A program made the position numbers and the translations under genes. A stretch of 49,798 nt of DNA from sequence record NC_101840.1. The stretch is one strand, 5' to 3'. Below are positions 16,307 through 29,059 of this stretch, one piece after another (position 1 is the first letter of the stretch; each line of letters opens with the position of its first letter). A model generated the notes under the pieces. That model saw nothing but the letters and a program-made list of their open reading frames with translations, was not told the origin of the DNA and did no database searches. The DNA comes from a phage.

Positions 16307-17037
16307 TGATTAGTGCAAAAATTAAACTTGAAATAATGCAGCACGTTAAAGAGGAATACCCTAAAGAGGCTTGCGGCGTCATAACTCAAAAGTCACGGGT
16401 ACAGAAATATCACCGCATAACCAACGTGCATGACGATCCAGAAAATCATTTTGAAATGGACGCCGTAGAATACGCTGAATCGCTCGACAAAGGCGAATTA
16501 ATCGCGGTTGTGCATTCCCATTGCGGGGATGGTGCTAGTACGATACCGAGCGCGCACGACTCATGTATGTGCGATGAAATGGGTGTGTCGTGGATTATAG
16601 TATCATGGCCCGAAGGTGATATGAGAATTGTCGAGCCGCAGGAGAGGCCGCTTATCGGTCGCCCGTGGTCGCTGGGGTCGTTCGATTGCTGGGGTCTTAT
16701 CATGGCATGGCATAAACAGCACGGAGTAGTATTGAATGACTTCCGAAAGCCTTACGAGTGGTGGAAGTCAGAATATGGTGAAAATCTTTACCAGGATAAT
16801 TATTTGAAAGAGGGATTTGTTGAAACTAACGAGCCTCCAAAACCTGGTGATATGGTGATTATGCAGCTATCATCGCCAGTCTGGAATCATGCGGGGATTT
16901 ATTTGGGTAACAATCAGCTATTACATCATGCGTTTGGAAAGCTATCTCGCATTGACTTGTATTCTGGATGGTATCAGGAGCACACTGTAAAAATTTGCCG
17001 ACATAAGGATCTGAAATATGACATTGAAAGTAATTAA
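16306..17037 (+). CDS. tail assembly protein (lambda K-like; JAB/MPN plus NlpC/P60 domains)
   Basis: JAMM-like HSHCGDGASTIPSAHD motif, downstream Cys/His of NlpC/P60 type; RBS GGAGG; start from internal ATG of track ORF 16204. Confidence 0.75.
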   Translation: MISAKIKLEIMQHVKEEYPKEACGVITQKSRVQKYHRITNVHDDPENHFEMDAVEYAESLDKGELIAVVHSHCGDGASTIPSAHDSCMCDEMGVSWIIVSWPEGDMRIVEPQERPLIGRPWSLGSFDCWGLIMAWHKQHGVVLNDFRKPYEWWKSEYGENLYQDNYLKEGFVETNEPPKPGDMVIMQLSSPVWNHAGIYLGNNQLLHHAFGKLSRIDLYSGWYQEHTVKICRHKDLKYDIESN

Positions 17038-17614
17038 GCTATCTGGTTCCCTGGGGCGTAGATTTGGCGTCTTTCACAAAATGGCGGTTGACTCATACCC
17101 CGAAGCAATACGCGCGTTATCTTCCCAGGTTGAAGGGTTCAAGGACTACATGCAAAGCGAAGTAGGATCGCGAATGAAGTATGCTGTATTCGTTGATGGA
17201 AAAAACGTTGGTCAGCATGATGAAAAATCATGGAAGTGCGCGCGAGAGGTTCGAATAGTTCCTGTTCCAACTGGTTCTAAGTCCGGCGGCCTGTTCAATG
17301 TTGTTTTTGGTGCTGTAATTATGGCTACTGCTTTCATTACTGGCGGTGCAAGCCTGGCGGCTATGGGCGCTTTTGCATCTTCCGCATTTATGATGGGTGG
17401 TGCTATCGCGCTTGGCGGTGTCATGCAAATGATCTCGCCGCAGCAGGGAGGAATGAAACTGCAAAGCCAGTCAGCAGAAAACAAGCCTTCTTACGCTTTC
17501 GGCGGCGCAGTAAATACCACGGCGGCAGGCTATCCGGTTCCTTTGCCATATGGATATAGGACAGTAGGCGGCGCGATCTGGTCGGCTGGCAGCTACGCAG
17601 AGGACAAAGCATAA
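17018..17614 (+). CDS. tail assembly protein (lambda I-like)
   Basis: position after K-like gene; Gly/Ala-rich hydrophobic C-terminal half. Confidence 0.55.
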   Translation: MTLKVIKLSGSLGRRFGVFHKMAVDSYPEAIRALSSQVEGFKDYMQSEVGSRMKYAVFVDGKNVGQHDEKSWKCAREVRIVPVPTGSKSGGLFNVVFGAVIMATAFITGGASLAAMGAFASSAFMMGGAIALGGVMQMISPQQGGMKLQSQSAENKPSYAFGGAVNTTAAGYPVPLPYGYRTVGGAIWSAGSYAEDKA

Positions 17615-17634
17615 ATAGCACAATATGTTAAAGC
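17613..17634 (+). promoter_or_regulatory. conserved junction box variant (AAATAGCACAATATGTTAAAGC)
   Basis: degenerate copy; follows TAA stop of I-like gene; followed by hairpin GCGAAAACGGATTTTCGC. Confidence 0.4.
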
Positions 17635-17675
17635 GAAAACGGATTTTCGCTTTACAATTAATTAAGGAGGTGATC

Positions 17676-18152
17676 ATGTGGCGTGATATTTTTTATTATA
17701 ATGACGGTAAGTTATTTTGGGCTGTAGACGTAGGAAGAAGGATAAAGAAAGGAAGTGAGGCAGGAAGCGTAAGCAAAAGCAAGAAGAGTGGAGAAAGGGT
17801 TAGAATATCAATTGATGGAGAAAGATACTACAGGAGCAGGATAGTTTGGGAAATTCATAATGGAGAAATACCGCATGGAATGCAAGTTGATCACATAGAT
17901 CACAACACAATGAACGACAATATTTCAAACTTAAGACTTGTTAGAATGAGTGTTAACAACAAGAATAAGTCGCTTTACAGGAACAGCAAGACGGGAATTA
18001 CTGGGGTAAACTTTAGTCGCGGAAAATGGATTGCAAGAGCAAAGATTGATGGTGTTAGGCATGAATTTTACTTTGATTCATTTCAGGATGCGGCAGAAAA
18101 GAGGATAGAGATTGAAGTTTTAAACAAATTCCACATAAACCACGGAAAGTAG
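17676..18152 (+). CDS. HNH homing endonuclease with AP2-like DNA-binding domain
   Basis: HIDHNTMNDNISNLRL (HNH) motif and C-terminal GVNF...W...I AP2-like segment; AAGGAGG RBS; start from internal ATG of track ORF 17625. Confidence 0.75.
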   Translation: MWRDIFYYNDGKLFWAVDVGRRIKKGSEAGSVSKSKKSGERVRISIDGERYYRSRIVWEIHNGEIPHGMQVDHIDHNTMNDNISNLRLVRMSVNNKNKSLYRNSKTGITGVNFSRGKWIARAKIDGVRHEFYFDSFQDAAEKRIEIEVLNKFHINHGK

Positions 18153-18158
18153 ACTTAA

Positions 18159-18181
18159 CCAGCATTGCGCTGGTTTTTTTG
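18159..18181 (+). terminator. rho-independent terminator
   Basis: CCAGC-ATTGC-GCTGG hairpin followed by TTTTTTT. Confidence 0.6.
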
Positions 18182-18229
18182 TGCCTTTATAATGTGCAAA
18201 CCAAGAAACAGCACAAAAGGTTAAAAGTA

Positions 18230-21200
18230 ATGGCTAAATATATGATAAGCGGCAGTAAGGGAGGCGGTCAAAAGCCCTACGTGCCAAAAGAGATGGAAGA
18301 TAACCTGATCTCGATAAACAAGATTAAAGTTTTGCTGGCTGTATCTGATGGCGAGTGCGATCCAGATTTTACGTTGCGTGATCTTTATCTTGATGATGTT
18401 CCGGTTATTGCCAGCGATGGCACTGTTAACTACGAGGGAGTTACGGCTGAATATCGACCAGGCACGCAGACGCAAGATTACATCCAGGGTTTTACTGACA
18501 CATCAAGTGAGGTTACAGTTGCCAGAGATATTACCGGAGACAATCCTTATGTTATTTCTGTTACAAATAAAAATCTATCTGCGGTAAGAATAAAGATCCT
18601 GATGCCAGTAGGCATTAAAACAGAGGATAACGGCGATCTTGTTGGCGTAAGGGTTGAGTATGCCGTAGATATGGCTGTTGATGGCGGTTCTTATAGCGAG
18701 GTTATGAGAGATGTAATTGACGGCAAGACAAGATCAGGATACGACCGCAGCAGAAGGATTGATCTTCCTAAGTTTGATGAGCGCGTTTTAATCCGAGTAA
18801 AGCGACTGACTCCAGACAGCACATCTTCAAAGGTGACTGATAAAATCAAGCTGCAAAGTTACGCTGAGGTTGTTGATGCAAAATTCCGCTATCCTCTGAC
18901 TGGACTTGTATTCGTAGAATTTGACAGCGAATTGTTTCCTACGCAAATCCCTAACATTTCTATAAAAAAGAAATGGAAGATTATTAATGTGCCAAGCAAC
19001 TATGATCCAATATCAAGAGAATATCACGGGTCATGGGATGGGACTTTTAAAAAAGCGTGGTCAAATAATCCTGCTTGGGTTCTTTATGATCTGGTGACAA
19101 ATCAGCGTTATGGACTTGATCAGCGAGAGTTAGGAATACAGATCGACAAGTGGAGCTTATACGAGGCGGGCGTTTACTGCGATCAGAAAGTTCCAGACGG
19201 TAAAGGCGGCACTGAGCCTCGCTACCTATGCGATGTGGTGATTCAGAATCAAGTTGAGGCTTATCAGCTAATCCGTGACATTTGCTCAATCTTTCGCGGA
19301 ATGAGTTTTTGGAATGGTGAGAGCTTATCAATCGTGATTGATAAGCCGCGCGATCCATCATACGTGTTTACTAATGAAAACGTCATCAACGGTGATTTTC
19401 AGTACACAAACGCAAGCGAAAAAAGCATGTACACGCAGTGTAACGTGACGTTTGACGACGAACAAAACATGTATCAGCAGGACGTAGAGGGGGTTTTTGA
19501 TACTGAGGCGGCATTACGATTTGGATACAACCCAACAAGCATTACAGCGATCGGGTGTACGCGCAGGAGCGAAGCGAATCGTCGCGGTCGTTGGGTTTTG
19601 AAAACAAACCTTAGAAGCACTACTGTAAACTTTGCTACCGGACTAGAGGGGATGATTCCATCAATAGGTGATGTTATTGCTATCGCTGATAATTTTCAGA
19701 GTAGCAACCTAACGTTAAACCTATCGGGCCGAGTAATGGAAGTTTCAGGGCTGCAGGTTTTCGTTCCGTTTAAGGTTGATGCTCGCCCTGGTGATTTTAT
19801 TATCATCAACAAGCCGGACGGCAAGCCAGTTAAGCGCACGATCTCAAAGGTTAGCGCAGACGGAAAAACCATTGAGTTAAATATTGGATTTGGTTTTGAT
19901 GTTAAGCCTGATACTGTTTTTGCGATTGACCGTACTGATCTTGCGTTGCAGCAATACGTTGTGACAACCATCAGCAAGGGTGATGACGAAAACGAGTTTA
20001 CCTATTCAATCACGGCTGTAGAGTACGATCCGAACAAATACGACGAGATTGATTATGGAGTAAACATTGATGACAGACCGACTTCAATTGTTCAGCCTGA
20101 CGTGATGGCAGCGCCTGAGAACGTTAAGATCTCATCTTATTCTCGCGTCGTGCAGGGTGTTAGCGTTGAGACTATGGTTGTTTCATGGGATAAGGTTCCT
20201 TACGCATCGCTTTATGAAATGCAGTGGCGAAAAGGTGATGGTAACTGGCTGAATACGCCGCAGACCGCTAACAAAGAGATAGAGGTAGAAGGGATTTACT
20301 CTGGCAACTACCAAGTAAGGGTGAGATCCGTTTCTGCAAGCGGTAACGCTTCCCCGTGGTCAAAGATTGCAACCGCCACTCTGACAGGTAAAGTTGGCGA
20401 GCCAGGAGCGCCGATTAATCTTACGGCTTCTGATAATGAAGTTTTTGGCATTCGTGTCAAATGGGGTATGCCGGAAGGATCAGGCGATACGGCTTACATT
20501 GAGCTTCACCAATCGCCAGACGGAACGGTTGAAAACTCAAGTCTGCTTACGCTGATTCCATATCCTCAATATGAGTATTGGCATAGCACGTTACCAGCGG
20601 GGCAAGTTGTATGGTATAGAATCCGCAGCGTTGACAGAATAGGCAACGTTTCAAGCTGGACTGACTTTGTTCGCGGCATGGCGTCAGATGACGTTGAATC
20701 TGTTTTGGGCGACATTCTGGACAAGATTTTTGATACAGAAGCTGGTCAAGAAATCAAAGAGAACGCCATAGACAGTGCCAATAAAATCAAAGACCAGGCG
20801 CAATCAATCATACAGAACGCGTTGGCAAATGATGCAGATGTGAAGTGGACGCGAGTGCAAAACGGAAAGCGCAAGGCTGAATATGGTCATGCTCTTGAGC
20901 TTATCGCCAATGAAACAGAAGCGCGCGTAACTCAAATCGAAGAGTTAAGGGCTTCAATTGATGGCGAGATAACATCAAGCATCAAGACAGTGCAGGAGGC
21001 AATTGCCACTGAATCAGAGACGCGAGCGACTCAAATTCAGCAGCTTGATTCTAAATTCACAAAAGAAATCGACGGCGTGCGCAAGGATACTTCTGCAAGC
21101 ATTAGCGATGTAAGGCAGACAATCACTAACGAGTCAGAAGCGCGCGCTCAGGCCGTTCAGCAGCTTGACGCTAAGTTCACGAAAGAGATAAACGACCTTG

Positions 21201-21808
21201 ACGGAGTTATCAAAACAGAAGTCGAGGCTAACATCTCAGAAGTGAAACAGGCGATCGCCAATGAGACAGAGGCAAGGGTTCAGGCTGACCAGGCATTAAC
21301 AGCACGATTTGGCGACGTTGAATCTGCATTGGTTGAAAAGTTGGATTCTTGGGCGAGCGTTGATTCAGTTGGCGCTAAATACGCTATGAAACTTGGCCTT
21401 ACTTACAAAGGCCAGCAATACAGCGCAGGAATGGTGATGCAGCTTTCGCAGGGTTCATCCGGCCTTATCTCGCAAATTTTGTTTGATGCTAACAGGTTCG
21501 CCATTATGACTAGCTCTACTGGAGGGACTTTTACTTTGCCTTTCGTGGTTGAGAATAATCAGGTTTTCATTAATAGTCTTTTGGTGAAGAACGGTTCAAT
21601 CACTAATGCGATGATTGGTAATGTGATTCAGTCAAACAACTTTGTTCAAAACCAGCAAGGATGGAGGCTTGATAAAAACGGAATCTTTGAGAATTACGGA
21701 TCAACGCCAGGAGAAGGAGCTACTAAATTCACCAATGAGGGATTGAAGGTAAAAGATGCAAACGGAGTATTGAGGGTTGAAGTCGGAAGGATTACCGGAA
21801 GCTGGTAA
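18230..21808 (+). CDS. central tail fibre / host specificity protein (lambda J-like, about 1190 aa)
   Basis: length, position after I-like gene, fibronectin-III-like middle region, repeat-rich C-terminus; start from internal ATG of track ORF 18179. Confidence 0.85.
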   Translation: MAKYMISGSKGGGQKPYVPKEMEDNLISINKIKVLLAVSDGECDPDFTLRDLYLDDVPVIASDGTVNYEGVTAEYRPGTQTQDYIQGFTDTSSEVTVARDITGDNPYVISVTNKNLSAVRIKILMPVGIKTEDNGDLVGVRVEYAVDMAVDGGSYSEVMRDVIDGKTRSGYDRSRRIDLPKFDERVLIRVKRLTPDSTSSKVTDKIKLQSYAEVVDAKFRYPLTGLVFVEFDSELFPTQIPNISIKKKWKIINVPSNYDPISREYHGSWDGTFKKAWSNNPAWVLYDLVTNQRYGLDQRELGIQIDKWSLYEAGVYCDQKVPDGKGGTEPRYLCDVVIQNQVEAYQLIRDICSIFRGMSFWNGESLSIVIDKPRDPSYVFTNENVINGDFQYTNASEKSMYTQCNVTFDDEQNMYQQDVEGVFDTEAALRFGYNPTSITAIGCTRRSEANRRGRWVLKTNLRSTTVNFATGLEGMIPSIGDVIAIADNFQSSNLTLNLSGRVMEVSGLQVFVPFKVDARPGDFIIINKPDGKPVKRTISKVSADGKTIELNIGFGFDVKPDTVFAIDRTDLALQQYVVTTISKGDDENEFTYSITAVEYDPNKYDEIDYGVNIDDRPTSIVQPDVMAAPENVKISSYSRVVQGVSVETMVVSWDKVPYASLYEMQWRKGDGNWLNTPQTANKEIEVEGIYSGNYQVRVRSVSASGNASPWSKIATATLTGKVGEPGAPINLTASDNEVFGIRVKWGMPEGSGDTAYIELHQSPDGTVENSSLLTLIPYPQYEYWHSTLPAGQVVWYRIRSVDRIGNVSSWTDFVRGMASDDVESVLGDILDKIFDTEAGQEIKENAIDSANKIKDQAQSIIQNALANDADVKWTRVQNGKRKAEYGHALELIANETEARVTQIEELRASIDGEITSSIKTVQEAIATESETRATQIQQLDSKFTKEIDGVRKDTSASISDVRQTITNESEARAQAVQQLDAKFTKEINDLDGVIKTEVEANISEVKQAIANETEARVQADQALTARFGDVESALVEKLDSWASVDSVGAKYAMKLGLTYKGQQYSAGMVMQLSQGSSGLISQILFDANRFAIMTSSTGGTFTLPFVVENNQVFINSLLVKNGSITNAMIGNVIQSNNFVQNQQGWRLDKNGIFENYGSTPGEGATKFTNEGLKVKDANGVLRVEVGRITGSW
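20898..21312 (+). repeat. four imperfect roughly 40-codon repeats in the C-terminal part of the J-like gene
   Basis: peptide repeats ETEARV-TQIEEL / ESETRA-TQIQQL-DSKFTKEIDGV / ESEARA-QAVQQL-DAKFTKEINDLDGV / ETEARV-QADQAL. Confidence 0.4.
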
Positions 21809-26581: not shown

Positions 26582-26813
26582 TATACCTTCCGCTACCCAA
26601 CTCGGATGATAGATCAGTTTGTTTTAGATACGGTTTCAACTTATTGTCAACATCAGCAGTTGATGCTTTTCCTGCAACATCCTGTTTTAGTGTCGAAACG
26701 TCATTTTTCAGCTTCGTTATATCACCAGGAATAGTAGCAACATCCTGTTTTAGTGTTGAAACGTCATTTTTCAGCTTCGTTATATCACTAGGTATAACAG
26801 TGACTGTAGCCAT
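26553..26813 (-). CDS. tail-fibre segment with perfect 20-aa tandem repeat (86 aa); likely 5' part of the same fibre gene
   Basis: AAGGAG RBS; IPxDITKLKNDVSTLKQDVA repeated twice; ends at stop just after a T5/C6 homopolymer. Confidence 0.5.
   Translation of the reverse strand: MATVTVIPSDITKLKNDVSTLKQDVATIPGDITKLKNDVSTLKQDVAGKASTADVDNKLKPYLKQTDLSSELGSGRYSGSFYPPNW
26676..26795. repeat. two tandem 60-bp direct repeats inside the fibre ORF
   Basis: near-identical 60-mers on the + strand with 2 mismatches. Confidence 0.7.
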
Positions 26814-27104: not shown

Positions 27105-29059
27105 TAAACAATTTCCCCCAATTGATGATCTGTTAGCGCCTTGTGCCATATACGGAAGTTTCTAACGTGCCCGAAAAGATGGCGTTCGCCTGTACTTGTT
27201 TGTCCGCCAATCCTTATAGTAGCCGTTGATACTATATATCTCCATTCCGTTTTTGTTTCGCTTGACATTCTGGCATTACTTACACAACAAGTATTGTAAT
27301 CACTCTTTACTCTCATTCCTATGATCATCTTTTTTAGTTTCGCATTCTCGTTAACCCTTCTGTTTGATTTACCTATATCGCAATAAGGGAATCCATCAGC
27401 ATCGCCTTCGGCAGACCCGAAAGCAAGAATAATTCCCGCACCAGATTGATGACCTCCAGTATCGAAAACACGAGGCGCAGCGTTTGGCGTTATACTCCAG
27501 TTTTTATGAGCTTCCACAAGCACTGTAAACGGCAAATTGTAAAGGTTGTTTTTTATTGGCAATGTAACCATATCGCTTGCCCTTGTTGTCGGACTTTTAT
27601 TAGTTATAATGAATGATGAAGCGCAAGATCCAACCTCTACTTGAGGAGTTGTTAAATCCATAAAGCTATTTTCATCAAAAACTTCTCCTTGTTTATTAAC
27701 GACCTGTATTACCCCCCTAATGTAAGTTGATTCATCAGTAACTTTGTAAACTATTTCTGCAAAAATCCATTCCCCGTCTATGGTAGCGTTCTTTAGCACT
27801 ATGTTTTTTGCGTCAACTCCAGAAGTTGCCACCCCTAAGTTATCGCAATCAATAATAGCAGAAGCAACAGAAGATAAAGGATCTCCCTTGTCAAATCTTG
27901 CTGCAAATCTTACATTTTTCCCCTTAGCCCTAAAAGATATTGTAACTCCATCACCCTTTACAACTGCAATCTTATTTGCAGTAGGTCCAGCTATAACAGT
28001 GTAAGAGCCTACGCCACCTAAATATTCCCCTGGTTTAAATGTTGCATACTTAAACCCCCTTTCATCAGTCTTAGTTTCACCTCTTTCTAATCCTGGATTT
28101 GGATTCCATGATTCAGGCTTATTTGAATTTACAAAATAGTTTGTTCTCTGCCCTTCAATCAAAAGACCATCCTTTTCAAATCTAGGTTCATCAATAGCAG
28201 CATCAGTAAGCAACCCAGACTTATTAATGTAAGTAGCGGTTGATGCACGTTTAAACTTAACAATCTTGTCACCTGGCATCGTGATCTCATCATCACCTAT
28301 GACAATCTTTTTGTATGACGGCGAGAATCCGGTGATCATATCCAGGGAATCATTAAATGGTATCCACACGTCAGGTAGAGGCTGCAATAAATCTTTGTAA
28401 GGTTCTGCGGCCTGTTTTGCGTATTCCTCCGCTTGATCTCGCGCACTTTCAGCGCCTGCCTTTGCGGTGTTCGCAGCATCACGCGCAGTTTCAGCGCCTT
28501 TTCTTGCAGTTTCAGCGCCAGTCTTTGCAGTGTTTGCAGCGTCGCGCGCGGATTCAGCGGCAGCCTTTGCAGTGTCAGCACCTTTCTTGCTATTCTTTGC
28601 ATTTGTTGCGCTTGTCTTTGCGTTATTCTCGCTAGTTTTAGCTGCCTTCTGGCTTGCTGCGGCTGCGTCAGCATTTGTCTTTACGTCTTCCTGGATCTTC
28701 TGTAGCTTATCCCAATCAAAATCCTTGATGATCTCAATAAATCCAGCAAACTCCGATTCCTTCCCCTGGTAATAACGCAACGTTTCCGCTACGTCTTGCG
28801 CAAGACCGTCAACCGTTAACGAGTCATGAAGCAAGATCAGGTAATTTGTCTTCTGTACTACCGCGCCTCCAGTAGTAATTGCGCGAATGCTTGTATCGCT
28901 AATCACTTCTGTAATCACAGCAGCTTGCAAAGGTTGAGCAAGAAAGAAAATAGTTGCACCTGGGCGAATCAAGGTTAATTGCTCACGCCATTTTGTACCG
29001 TAACCAGTTACATAACCTTGCGCGTCCATAGACGCTTGGCCTTGTCTGTAAATCGCCAT
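27104..29059 (-). CDS. side tail fibre protein (about 651 aa)
   Basis: N-terminal Ala/Thr/Lys-rich fibre repeats; GGAGG RBS before ATG 29059 (track start 29083 is GTG). Confidence 0.7.
   Translation of the reverse strand: MAIYRQGQASMDAQGYVTGYGTKWREQLTLIRPGATIFFLAQPLQAAVITEVISDTSIRAITTGGAVVQKTNYLILLHDSLTVDGLAQDVAETLRYYQGKESEFAGFIEIIKDFDWDKLQKIQEDVKTNADAAAASQKAAKTSENNAKTSATNAKNSKKGADTAKAAAESARDAANTAKTGAETARKGAETARDAANTAKAGAESARDQAEEYAKQAAEPYKDLLQPLPDVWIPFNDSLDMITGFSPSYKKIVIGDDEITMPGDKIVKFKRASTATYINKSGLLTDAAIDEPRFEKDGLLIEGQRTNYFVNSNKPESWNPNPGLERGETKTDERGFKYATFKPGEYLGGVGSYTVIAGPTANKIAVVKGDGVTISFRAKGKNVRFAARFDKGDPLSSVASAIIDCDNLGVATSGVDAKNIVLKNATIDGEWIFAEIVYKVTDESTYIRGVIQVVNKQGEVFDENSFMDLTTPQVEVGSCASSFIITNKSPTTRASDMVTLPIKNNLYNLPFTVLVEAHKNWSITPNAAPRVFDTGGHQSGAGIILAFGSAEGDADGFPYCDIGKSNRRVNENAKLKKMIIGMRVKSDYNTCCVSNARMSSETKTEWRYIVSTATIRIGGQTSTGERHLFGHVRNFRIWHKALTDHQLGEIV
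28430..28640. repeat. degenerate short repeats encoding Ala/Thr/Lys-rich fibre segment
   Basis: reiterated GCNGAA/ACNGCNAAA-type codon blocks. Confidence 0.4.

What the first reader, a model, noticed from the sequence alone, without database searches (positions are those of the whole stretch)
17613..18181. HNH homing endonuclease cassette inserted between the I-like and J-like tail genes
In lambda-like tail modules the I gene directly abuts J. Here a 158-aa HNH/AP2 endonuclease gene with its own degenerate box, hairpin, strong RBS and terminator lies in between. It looks like a self-contained mobile cassette that uses a box as its entry point.
Basis: partly seen in the sequence, partly recalled or inferred. 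Interest (0 to 1): 0.4.

Follow-up and report, generated by a model that had tools for sequence, protein, structure and literature searches.

The report
Mobile HNH endonuclease gene between tail genes
A small selfish nuclease gene sits between two tail genes of this T1-like coliphage; it is present in some close relatives and cleanly absent from others, an ordinary but very clear case of a homing-type gene spreading among phages.

Summary
A 158-aa ORF (17676-18152, +) with an intact HNH_3 motif lies between the lambda-I-like gene (17018-17614) and the J-like gene (18230-21808). Upstream are a degenerate copy of the genome's repeated promoter box, a perfect 11-bp hairpin and a strong RBS; downstream is a terminator. 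The window is a Warwickvirus (Drexlerviridae).

- Seven GenBank relatives and at least 10 metagenome contigs carry the cassette.
- About 40 records have a clean empty site, as does a Hanrivervirus outgroup.
- Two phages carry a dead remnant with a 323-bp internal deletion.

Evidence for recent spread across 18 occupied genomes:
- The cassette has 7 segregating sites, against 60 and 100 in equal-length flanks.
- The window's J gene is 100% identical to that of cassette-free phages.
- Linkage to flanking SNPs vanishes within 15 bp on the right and about 100-300 bp on the left.
- Three fixed, structure-preserving substitutions in the terminator hairpin always travel with the cassette. This marks the hairpin as the likely cleavage or immunity site.

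The claim that the cassette enters at a box is not supported, because the empty site has no box at the insertion point. This is a new member of a known kind, the free-standing HNH(-AP2) homing endonuclease genes. Nuclease activity and target are inferred, not shown.

The parts
17018..17614 (+). Lambda I-like tail tip assembly gene. Its last ~100 bp (up to ~300 bp in some pairs) are co-inherited with the cassette, forming the left co-conversion tract.
   Evidence: Pfam Lambda_tail_I E=9e-21. Fst between occupied and empty alleles is 0.52 at 17515-17614 and falls to 0.1-0.2 further upstream. The synonymous SNPs 17602 G/A and 17605 C/T are almost fixed between the two classes. In the otherwise close pair Phunderstruck/JLBYU16, SNPs cluster at 17311-17605.
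17614..17633 (+). Degenerate copy of the phage's repeated promoter box (AATAGCACAATATGTTAAAG; consensus AATAGCACTTTTTGTTAAAA). It is carried inside the cassette.
   Evidence: 18 copies with at most 4 mismatches in the window. About 13 have a -10-like hexamer 18-20 nt after the box end (11 of them at exactly 19 nt) and an RBS plus ORF start 49-64 nt after it. The cassette copy has TACAAT at the same 19-nt offset. The box is absent from empty alleles at this place.
17629..17654 (+). Perfect 11-bp inverted repeat with a 4-nt loop, between the box and the -10-like hexamer TACAAT (17653-17658).
   Evidence: I6, 100% complementary; RNA fold -11.4 kcal/mol, z=-4.6, 0 of 200 shuffles as stable. Several canonical boxes have a hairpin in the same position.
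17676..18152 (+). HNH_3 endonuclease gene, 158 aa, preceded by the RBS AAGGAGG (17665-17671). The C-terminal ~45 aa form an AP2-like three-strand-plus-helix unit. An alternative in-frame start at 17625 gives 175 aa.
   Evidence: - Family: Pfam HNH_3 E=1e-15; PHROG 99.
- Catalytic residues: all invariant family residues are kept (D72, H73, N85, N94, N97).
- Fold: AlphaFold model pLDDT 83.6, best PDB match I-HmuI 1u3e, E=3e-5.
- AP2: Pfam AP2 hits in 6 of 15 relatives but not in this protein; hhalign to the AtERF1 AP2 domain gives probability 71% over residues 116-151.
- Occurrence: the exact protein is listed in 251 blocks of the public assembly collection.
18157..18181 (+). Intrinsic-terminator-like hairpin plus T-run (AACCAGCATTGCGCTGGTT TTTTTTT). 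It is the cassette-linked variant of the terminator that follows gene I in empty genomes (ACCCGCCTTGCGCGGG), marks the right edge of the mobile unit, and is the proposed cleavage or immunity site.
   Evidence: Terminator scan; fold -9.8 kcal/mol. Positions 18161 (A vs C), 18164 (A vs C) and 18171 (T vs G) are fixed differences between 20 occupied/remnant and 10 empty aligned alleles. The 5 further empty alleles seen also carry the empty-type hairpin. 18161 and 18171 are compensatory (C-G to A-T). The next polymorphism, 18185, is unlinked.
18188..18229 (+). Resident J upstream region: TATAAT (18188-18193) and a box-like leader AAACAGCACAAAAGGTTAAA (18206-18225), shared by empty and occupied alleles. 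It is not part of the mobile unit.
   Evidence: Identical in empty and occupied genomes. It matches the cassette's box at 17 of 20 positions (D3). The Hanrivervirus outgroup has AAATAGCACAAAAGGTGAAAA at the same place.
18230..21808 (+). J-like central tail fibre / host specificity gene, immediately downstream. Its alleles assort independently of the cassette.
   Evidence: Pfam and PHROG 31. Window 18400-20800 is 100% identical to the cassette-free phages tinuso and G3B1. J product lengths of 1141, 1152, 1162 and 1192 aa are found next to the identical HNH protein.

Best explanation
This is a free-standing homing endonuclease gene (HEG) of the HNH_3 / I-HmuI type, with an AP2-like DNA-binding tail. 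It has recently invaded the I-J intergenic spacer of Warwickvirus phages.

Proposed mechanism:
1. When a cassette-carrying and a cassette-free phage co-infect a cell, the enzyme nicks or cuts the cassette-free genome at or next to the GC-rich terminator hairpin behind gene I (ACCCGCCTTGCGCGGG).
2. The break is repaired by recombination from the cassette-carrying genome.
3. Repair copies in the ~557-bp unit: box, hairpin, RBS, HNH gene and variant terminator. A short stretch of the 3' end of gene I comes with it.
4. The carrier is protected because its hairpin has three substitutions (CCAGCATTGCGCTGG) that keep the stem, and so the terminator, but change the sequence.
5. The gene is expressed from its own box-type promoter, by read-through from the tail operon, or both. 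It sits upstream of the terminator, so the I and J genes stay intact.
6. Once a lineage is immune the gene is dispensable and decays, as in tonn and ityhuna.

Shown: the gene, its intact catalytic motif and fold, the insertion polymorphism, the empty ancestral state, the very low cassette diversity on diverged backgrounds, the sharp linkage boundaries and the remnant.

Inferred: nuclease activity, nicking versus double-strand cutting, the target site, immunity through the hairpin SNPs, and the route of expression.
For: - Family and fold: HNH_3 E=1e-15; all family-invariant residues kept; the model's best PDB match is the homing endonuclease I-HmuI.
- Relatives: over 2,600 phage records hold relatives, many annotated as homing endonucleases, at many different genomic sites. 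The nearest outside this lineage are only ~47% identical.
- Polymorphism: 11 GenBank records (7 phages) are occupied, 3 records (2 phages) carry the remnant, and about 40 are empty with an identical junction. The Hanrivervirus outgroup is empty.
- Recent spread: 7 segregating sites in 542 bp of cassette, against 60 and 100 in the adjacent 542-bp flanks, among 18 occupied genomes (Fisher p=8e-22; pi 0.0019 vs 0.032 and 0.058). The identical 158-aa protein lies next to J alleles of four different lengths.
- Near-identical backgrounds differ by the cassette: the window's J (2.4 kb) is 100% identical to the empty phages tinuso and G3B1, and Phunderstruck is 0.04% from the empty phage JK16.
- Linkage: three fixed differences sit in the hairpin. 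Linkage is gone 14 bp further right and decays over ~100-300 bp on the left.
- Foreign composition: 36.9% GC against 44.6%.
- Decay: a 323-bp out-of-frame deletion between the repeats CAGGAAGCG and CAGGATGCG removes the HNH motif in tonn and ityhuna but keeps the variant hairpin.
- Literature: HNH-AP2 genes are described as free-standing HEGs sitting at boundaries of genetic exchange next to essential phage genes, and AP2 domains favour GC-rich DNA (PMC10448857).
Against: - No biochemical or genetic evidence of cleavage exists for this protein or any close relative. No solved structure is detectable by sequence.
- These phages are highly mosaic, so ordinary homologous recombination could by itself move a 0.5-kb insertion between backgrounds and erase linkage.
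- The hairpin substitutions could simply be the donor lineage's terminator variant that always falls inside the exchanged segment, rather than an immunity determinant.
- The AP2 domain is not detected by Pfam in this protein itself.
- The cassette's -10-like hexamer would put the transcript start almost on the RBS, so the 'own promoter' is uncertain.
- The cassette is at modest frequency (about one fifth of sequenced relatives), so the drive is not overwhelming.
Confidence: 0.72

Rival explanations
1. Passive accessory gene ('moron'-like indel). The HNH gene was acquired once by illegitimate recombination. It now moves between Warwickvirus genomes only by the general homologous recombination that shuffles all their genes, and the nuclease plays no part in its own spread.
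For: Linkage disequilibrium across the whole 8-kb region is near background (mean r2 ~0.03). J alleles are reshuffled independently, so recombination is pervasive. Olsen et al. note many small insertions and deletions among these phages (PMC7552041). The same spacer in BEK12A holds a different ~107-bp insert, so the site is a general indel hotspot.
Against: A neutral insertion old enough to have been recombined onto backgrounds differing by 3-6% should itself have accumulated diversity, yet it has 7 segregating sites against 60-100 in the flanks. The catalytic residues are all intact in 18 of 20 copies. The three terminator substitutions are perfectly linked while a SNP 14 bp further on is not. 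The family is the classic homing family.
Confidence: 0.15
2. A domesticated nuclease that serves the phage. Possible roles are interference with co-infecting competitor phages or satellites, introduction of site-specific nicks as in T5, or help with DNA packaging as in the HNH-terminase partnerships of HK97-like phages. It would be kept by selection rather than by drive.
For: The protein is 100% conserved at the amino-acid level in most carriers, which fits purifying selection. It has expression signals of the phage's own type. Cutting of cassette-free relatives would also amount to competitor interference, so this reading overlaps with homing.
Against: Most sequenced Warwickviruses, and the outgroup, lack it and are viable. 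Two lineages have lost the catalytic domain. It is not next to a terminase gene but inside the tail module. The low diversity extends to every site in the cassette, not only to replacement sites.
Confidence: 0.08
3. Ancestral gene of the tail module that was precisely deleted once, with the empty allele then spreading.
For: All empty alleles share one identical junction, as a single deletion event would give.
Against: The outgroup genus Hanrivervirus has the empty architecture with its own terminator. Under this model the cassette would be the old allele, but it is the one lacking diversity. GC content is foreign. The only deletion actually observed is imprecise and internal. The empty site has six different bases (AAAAAT) and a different hairpin, not a simple excision scar.
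Confidence: 0.03

Closest known systems
Free-standing HNH-AP2 homing endonuclease genes of phages: the 'IPA-HNH' HEGs of ICP1 and other phages (Barth et al. 2023, PMC10448857), and the HNH-AP2 family first noted by Magnani et al. 2004 (from my own knowledge)
   Same: N-terminal HNH_3 nuclease plus a C-terminal AP2-type unit. An intergenic, free-standing gene next to essential structural genes. It sits at a boundary of genetic exchange, is patchily distributed among close relatives, and decayed copies occur.
   Different: This lineage is under 50% identical to any other phage HNH in the collection. Its AP2 unit is too degenerate for Pfam. It occupies a site (the I-J spacer of a T1-like tail module) for which I found no description. 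It carries a copy of the host phage's own promoter box.
I-HmuI (Bacillus phage SPO1, PDB 1u3e), intron-encoded HNH nicking homing endonuclease
   Same: Best structural match of the model (E=3e-5). Same HNH_3 motif with Asn in place of the last His, and an elongated modular DNA-binding architecture.
   Different: I-HmuI is encoded inside a group I intron in a DNA polymerase gene and has a helix-turn-helix C-terminal domain. Here the gene is free-standing and the C-terminal domain is AP2-like. Sequence identity is 22%, and phmmer against PDB sequences finds nothing.
T4 free-standing HEGs (SegG, SegE, MobE; from my own knowledge, refs 10-11 in PMC10448857)
   Same: Intergenic HEGs that cut HEG-less relatives, spread with co-conversion of flanking markers over tens to hundreds of bp, and are protected by polymorphisms in the carrier's target.
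   Different: Seg enzymes are GIY-YIG, and T4 biology differs (modified DNA, its own recombination machinery). For those enzymes cleavage and marker exclusion are shown experimentally; here they are inferred from population data.
T5 HNH genes (hegI and related; F-TflI/II/IV nickases, from my own knowledge)
   Same: The T5 hegI region gives a 39.5% identity match over 67% of the query. They are free-standing HNH genes in a siphovirus of E. coli.
   Different: Different genomic sites; those tested are characterised as nicking enzymes; no AP2-like tail has been reported for them to my knowledge.

Membership tests
HNH_3 / I-HmuI-type HNH endonucleases | Significant match to the HNH_3 profile above the curated cut-off | tested here: met
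   57.5 bits against a cut-off of 24.8, E=1e-15, profile positions 1-45 of 46
HNH_3 / I-HmuI-type HNH endonucleases | Catalytic D-H dyad and the metal-binding Asn residues conserved | tested here: met
   D72, H73, N85, N94 and N97 are invariant across the 15-member alignment and present in the window protein
HNH_3 / I-HmuI-type HNH endonucleases | beta-beta-alpha-metal fold resembling a solved member | tested here: met
   Model pLDDT 83.6. Foldseek top hit is I-HmuI 1u3e, E=3.2e-5, probability 1.00, though the global TM-score is only 0.41 because the domains are arranged differently
HNH_3 / I-HmuI-type HNH endonucleases | Site-specific DNA nicking or cleavage activity | not testable with these tools
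   Needs purified protein and empty-site DNA
HNH-AP2 homing endonucleases | C-terminal AP2 DNA-binding domain | tested here: inconclusive
   Pfam AP2 is not detected in this protein even at E<=10, but is found in 6 of 15 aligned relatives (best E=2.6e-6). The model has three strands plus a helix at 111-149. Foldseek gives weak local matches to AP2 domains 3igm and 7et4
Free-standing homing endonuclease gene (mobile HEG) | Presence/absence polymorphism at one homologous site among close relatives, with a clean empty allele | tested here: met
   occupied, empty and remnant alleles at the same junction; all 10 metagenome contigs examined have it at I-J
Free-standing homing endonuclease gene (mobile HEG) | Phylogenetic signature of horizontal spread: an element much younger than, and incongruent with, its flanks | tested here: met
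   7 against 60 and 100 segregating sites. For several occupied genomes, including the window, Phunderstruck and atuna, the nearest neighbour in one or both flanks is an empty genome. The outgroup is empty
Free-standing homing endonuclease gene (mobile HEG) | Co-conversion of flanking markers, with target polymorphism in the carrier | tested here: met
   Three fixed hairpin substitutions and near-fixed 17602 and 17605. Fst is 0.52 in the last 100 bp of I and 0.02 beyond the hairpin. This is consistent with homing but does not prove it
Free-standing homing endonuclease gene (mobile HEG) | Nuclease-dependent super-Mendelian inheritance in mixed infection | not testable with these tools
   Requires phage crosses with wild-type and catalytic-mutant cassettes
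HNH proteins that partner with terminase in DNA packaging (HK97-type) | Gene adjacent to the terminase or portal genes and conserved in all relatives | tested here: not met
   It lies in the tail module between I and J and is absent from most relatives

The most novel reading that the evidence does not exclude
The cassette may be adapted to this phage lineage in two ways. First, it targets the intrinsic terminator of the tail-assembly operon, a structured GC-rich element read by an AP2-like domain, and brings a recoded, structure-preserving terminator that makes the carrier immune. Second, it has captured a copy of the phage's own unusual promoter box so that it is expressed on the phage's schedule. 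If so, terminator hairpins would be a recognised class of HEG landing site, and the compensatory C-G to A-T change would be a natural example of target escape constrained by RNA structure.
Probability: 0.3. Interest if true: 0.45.

Novelty: new member of a known kind. Interest (0 to 1): 0.27.

Why it matters
For phage biology this is routine: free-standing HNH homing endonuclease genes are among the commonest accessory genes of lytic phages.

Its value is as an unusually clean natural data set. Three allele states (active, empty, decayed) occur at one site within one genus. The boundaries are mapped to a few bases. There is a concrete 30-bp candidate target, the empty-site terminator, and three candidate immunity substitutions. 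All of this can be tested directly with phages already in collections: swan01, tinuso, atuna, mar001J1 and the BASEL phage FritzSarasin.

It also sits directly upstream of the host-range gene J. HEG-driven recombination here could help shuffle J alleles between co-infecting phages, which matters for host-range evolution and for engineering T1-like phages.

Tried and rejected
- Box as entry site: rejected. Empty alleles from 10 aligned genomes plus 5 others (XY3, FritzSarasin and 3 IMG/VR contigs), and the Hanrivervirus outgroup, have no box between the I stop codon and the terminator.
- The 17/20 direct repeat 17613-17632 / 18206-18225 as a target-site duplication: rejected. The second copy, the terminator and the TATAAT between them are all present in empty alleles too.
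- Paralogues in the window: tblastn of the protein against the window finds only itself.
- A second unprotected target in the window: none within 3 mismatches.
- phmmer against PDB sequences: no hit at E<=1. The relationship to I-HmuI is visible only by fold.
- IMG/VR scan with the protein: only distant (38-41%) relatives, no copy of this lineage. The pattern scan found 3 more empty alleles.
- Literature: no paper combines 'Warwickvirus' and 'HNH'. The papers describing these phages do not mention HNH or homing.
- Fetching MN850586 (phage orkinos), whose published length equals the window's 49,798 bp: not in the collection. The identification rests on length and taxonomy only.
- Choice of start codon: the 175-aa form from ATG 17625 would restore part of the N-terminal helix seen in homologues, but it has no RBS and overlaps the box and hairpin. 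Left unresolved.
Full report
**What is there.** Between a lambda-I-like gene (17018-17614; Pfam Lambda_tail_I, E=9e-21) and a J-like central tail fibre gene (18230-21808) lies a 477-nt ORF (17676-18152, + strand, 158 aa). It matches Pfam HNH_3 (57.5 bits against a cut-off of 24.8, E=1e-15) and PHROG 99 'HNH endonuclease' (E=4e-49).
- a degenerate repeated 'box' at 17614-17633;
- a perfect 11-bp inverted repeat at 17629-17654 (-11.4 kcal/mol as RNA, z=-4.6);
- AAGGAGG 6 nt before the ATG;
- a terminator-like hairpin with a T-run at 18157-18181.

The segment is compositionally foreign: 36.9% GC against 44.6% for the window, in the lowest 1.1% of windows of its size.

**Which genome this is.** The region is 95-98.6% identical to phages of the genus Warwickvirus (Drexlerviridae, Tempevirinae). 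The window's length, 49,798 bp, equals that published for the Warwickvirus phage orkinos (MN850586) in Olsen et al. 2020 (PMC7552041). That record is not in the searchable collection, so the identification is an inference.

**The insertion polymorphism.** A 2.2-kb query across the junction finds three allele classes among close relatives:
- Full length: 11 GenBank records from 7 phages (Phunderstruck, Kalemo, JLBYU01, JLBYU10, mar001J1, brachmannus, atuna).
- Empty: about 40 records in which exactly 537 bp are missing (swan01, tinuso, G3B1, JK16, SECphi27, tunus, tonijn, FritzSarasin and others).
- Intermediate: 3 records from 2 phages (tonn, ityhuna).

Alignments give the junctions to the base:
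- Empty alleles read ...GCATAA|AAAAAT|ACCCGCCTTGCGCGGGTTTTTTTGTGC...
- Occupied alleles read ...GCATAA|ATAGCAC...HNH...TAGAYTTA|ACCAGCATTGCGCTGGTTTTTTTGTGC...

The intermediate allele is the cassette with a 323-bp out-of-frame deletion (window 17767-18089) between the imperfect repeats CAGGAAGCG and CAGGATGCG. It removes residues ~31-138, which include the whole HNH motif, and leaves a 38-codon ORF. A Hanrivervirus outgroup has the empty architecture: I stop, 10 nt, its own terminator, TATAAT, J leader. Empty is therefore the ancestral state. The exact 158-aa protein is listed in 251 blocks of the public assembly collection. All ten ~50-kb contigs examined have it at the same I-J position, next to J genes of four different lengths.

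**Evidence that the cassette is young and has spread horizontally.** I aligned the window with 19 GenBank loci and 10 metagenome contigs: 18 occupied, 2 remnant, 10 empty.
- Diversity: among the 18 occupied genomes the 542-bp cassette has 7 segregating sites (pi=0.0019). The adjacent 542-bp stretches have 60 and 100 (pi=0.032 and 0.058). Fisher p=8e-22.
- Interleaving: occupied genomes are interspersed with empty ones. The window's J region 18400-20800 is 100% identical to that of the empty phages tinuso and G3B1. Phunderstruck differs from empty JK16 by 0.04% there. The left flanks of the window and of atuna are closest to the empty phages tonijn and tonnikala.
- Taxonomy: ityhuna (remnant) and swan01 (empty) are even classified in the same species.
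- Rejected alternative: an old insertion whose linkage had merely been eroded by recombination should be as diverse as its surroundings. It is 15-30 times less diverse.

**Boundaries and the likely target.**
- Overall linkage: association between occupancy and flanking SNPs is at background (mean r2 ~0.03) over most of the 8 kb and rises only next to the cassette.
- Right side: positions 18161 (A vs C), 18164 (A vs C) and 18171 (T vs G) in the terminator hairpin are fixed differences, 20 of 20 against 10 of 10. The empty-type hairpin also appears in XY3, FritzSarasin and three IMG/VR contigs. The next polymorphism, 18185, only 14 bp further, is unlinked, and Fst drops to 0.02.
- Window against tinuso: beyond those three positions they differ at a single base in the next 3 kb.
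- Left side: the synonymous SNPs 17602 and 17605 are nearly fixed. One metagenome contig, L041, joins empty-type GAAGAT directly to the cassette. Fst is 0.52 over the last 100 bp of gene I and 0.1-0.2 over the next ~400 bp. Otherwise close occupied/empty pairs show a cluster of differences at 17311-17605.
- Extent of the unit: it runs from just after the I stop codon to the 3' arm of the hairpin (~17616-18172), with a short variable co-conversion tract into gene I.
- The hairpin substitutions: 18161 and 18171 are compensatory (a C-G pair becomes A-T) and the third lies in the loop, so the stem and T-run are preserved.

My inference is that the enzyme recognises the GC-rich empty-site hairpin. 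Either the break lies at or to the right of it, so that it is always converted, or the substitutions make the carrier's site uncleavable, or both. AP2 domains are reported to prefer GC-rich DNA (PMC10448857), which fits. None of this is demonstrated.

**The protein.**
- Catalytic residues: all residues invariant in a 15-member family alignment, including the D72-H73 dyad and N85, N94 and N97, are present.
- Structure: an AlphaFold model (pLDDT 83.6) has the homing endonuclease I-HmuI (1u3e) as its only significant PDB match (E=3.2e-5). Sequence search of the PDB finds nothing.
- AP2-like tail: the C-terminal 111-149 is predicted as three strands and a helix. Pfam AP2 is not detected in this protein even at E<=10. 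It is detected in 6 of 15 relatives. 'HNH/AP2' is thus right at family level and only weakly supported for this copy.
- Distribution: relatives occur in over 2,600 phage records at many different genomic positions. Nothing between 60% and 99% identity exists in the collection apart from one unlisted record in the 80-90% identity band, which I did not identify. The nearest listed lineages are ~47% identical and sit at other sites, for example next to exonuclease VIII in AHS24.

**The 'box'.** The consensus AATAGCACTTTTTGTTAAAA occurs 18 times in the window with at most 4 mismatches, on both strands. In about 13 copies a -10-like hexamer follows 18-20 nt after the box end (exactly 19 nt in 11 of them). 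An RBS plus ORF start typically follows 49-64 nt after the box, often with a hairpin in the spacer and a conserved CATCGAAACGAAC leader. It is evidently a promoter family of this phage. The cassette's copy has 4 mismatches, TACAAT at the canonical 19-nt offset and its ATG 42 nt after the box. A transcript from it would start almost on the RBS, so read-through from gene I is an equally good route of expression, since the cassette lies upstream of the operon's terminator.

The idea that a box is the entry point fails. Empty alleles have no box at the insertion point. The only resident box-like sequence (18206-18225, in the J leader; AAATAGCACAAAAGGTGAAAA in the outgroup) lies beyond the terminator and the TATAAT, and is unchanged in both allele classes.

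**Comparison with what is known.** The element works like the free-standing HEGs of T-even phages (Seg and Mob enzymes; from my own knowledge). It belongs by domain content to the HNH-AP2 HEGs described for ICP1 and many other phages. Those sit next to essential genes at boundaries of genetic exchange and are often found as decayed copies (PMC10448857). GenBank records already annotate the gene as 'HNH endonuclease'. I found no paper discussing it or its polymorphism. It is a new member of a known kind.

**Verdict.** The box-entry idea is not supported. Homing is the best explanation (~0.7), with passive recombinational spread of an accessory gene as the main rival (~0.15). Interest is modest: the phenomenon is common. 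This instance offers sharply mapped boundaries, a candidate target and immunity changes in a terminator hairpin, and all three stages of the HEG life cycle within one genus.

Noticed in passing
window, 18 sites: 3366, 7991(-), 11741(-), 17614, 23055(-), 29076, 30638, 33127, 34197, 37441(-), 39603(-), 40277(-), 42194(-), 43499(-), 44861, 46311, 47631, 48946: A 20-nt box AATAGCACTTTTTGTTAAAA recurs on both strands. A -10-like hexamer follows at a fixed 19 nt (18-20), often with a GC-rich hairpin in that spacer, and a conserved leader CATCGAAACGAAC precedes the RBS. It looks like a phage-specific promoter family. The distance from TTGTTA to the -10 is 22 nt, too long for a standard sigma-70 -35/-10 pair, which suggests dependence on a phage factor.
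   Followed up: partly
L004 (phage BEK12A, MN158210) 1016-1200; also BEK26: The same I-J spacer holds a different, unrelated ~107-bp extra segment with a TTGACT-17-ATAATA promoter-like site and its own terminator. It is joined to a Hanrivervirus-type J leader and J 5' end. The spacer is a general hotspot for indels and mosaic joints.
   Followed up: partly
L003 (phage vB_EcoS_XY3, MN781674) 419-1142: Gene I is annotated as two overlapping CDS, and the locus is ~127 bp longer inside gene I than in relatives. This is a duplication, a frameshift or an assembly artefact.
   Followed up: no
window 17669-17670 in relatives (mar001J1, tonn, ityhuna: G>T; brachmannus: G>A): Two of the seven polymorphisms in the cassette hit the AAGGAGG ribosome-binding site of the HNH gene. 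The G>T variant is shared by the two remnant-carrying phages and mar001J1. This may be early down-tuning of expression before decay.
   Followed up: no
window 20882-21426 (3' part of J) and 20903-21278: The C-terminal third of J is by far the most divergent part of the region (pi 0.15-0.21 among relatives). It contains a ~100-130-bp periodic repeat (ATCGCCAATGAAACAGAAGCGCGCG-like, D5/D20), which fits a coiled-coil repeat and swapping of the host-range module.
   Followed up: no
window 26674-26796 and 28443-28568: Two 63-bp tandem duplications (95% and 76% identical copies), found by the whole-window repeat scan (D7 and D9).
   Followed up: no
GenBank relatives mar001J1, Kalemo, JLBYU10, brachmannus ('places_in_record' 2-3): Other Warwickviruses carry one or two further HNH paralogues elsewhere in their genomes, whereas the window has only this one. 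The HEG content of the genus is variable at several sites.
   Followed up: no
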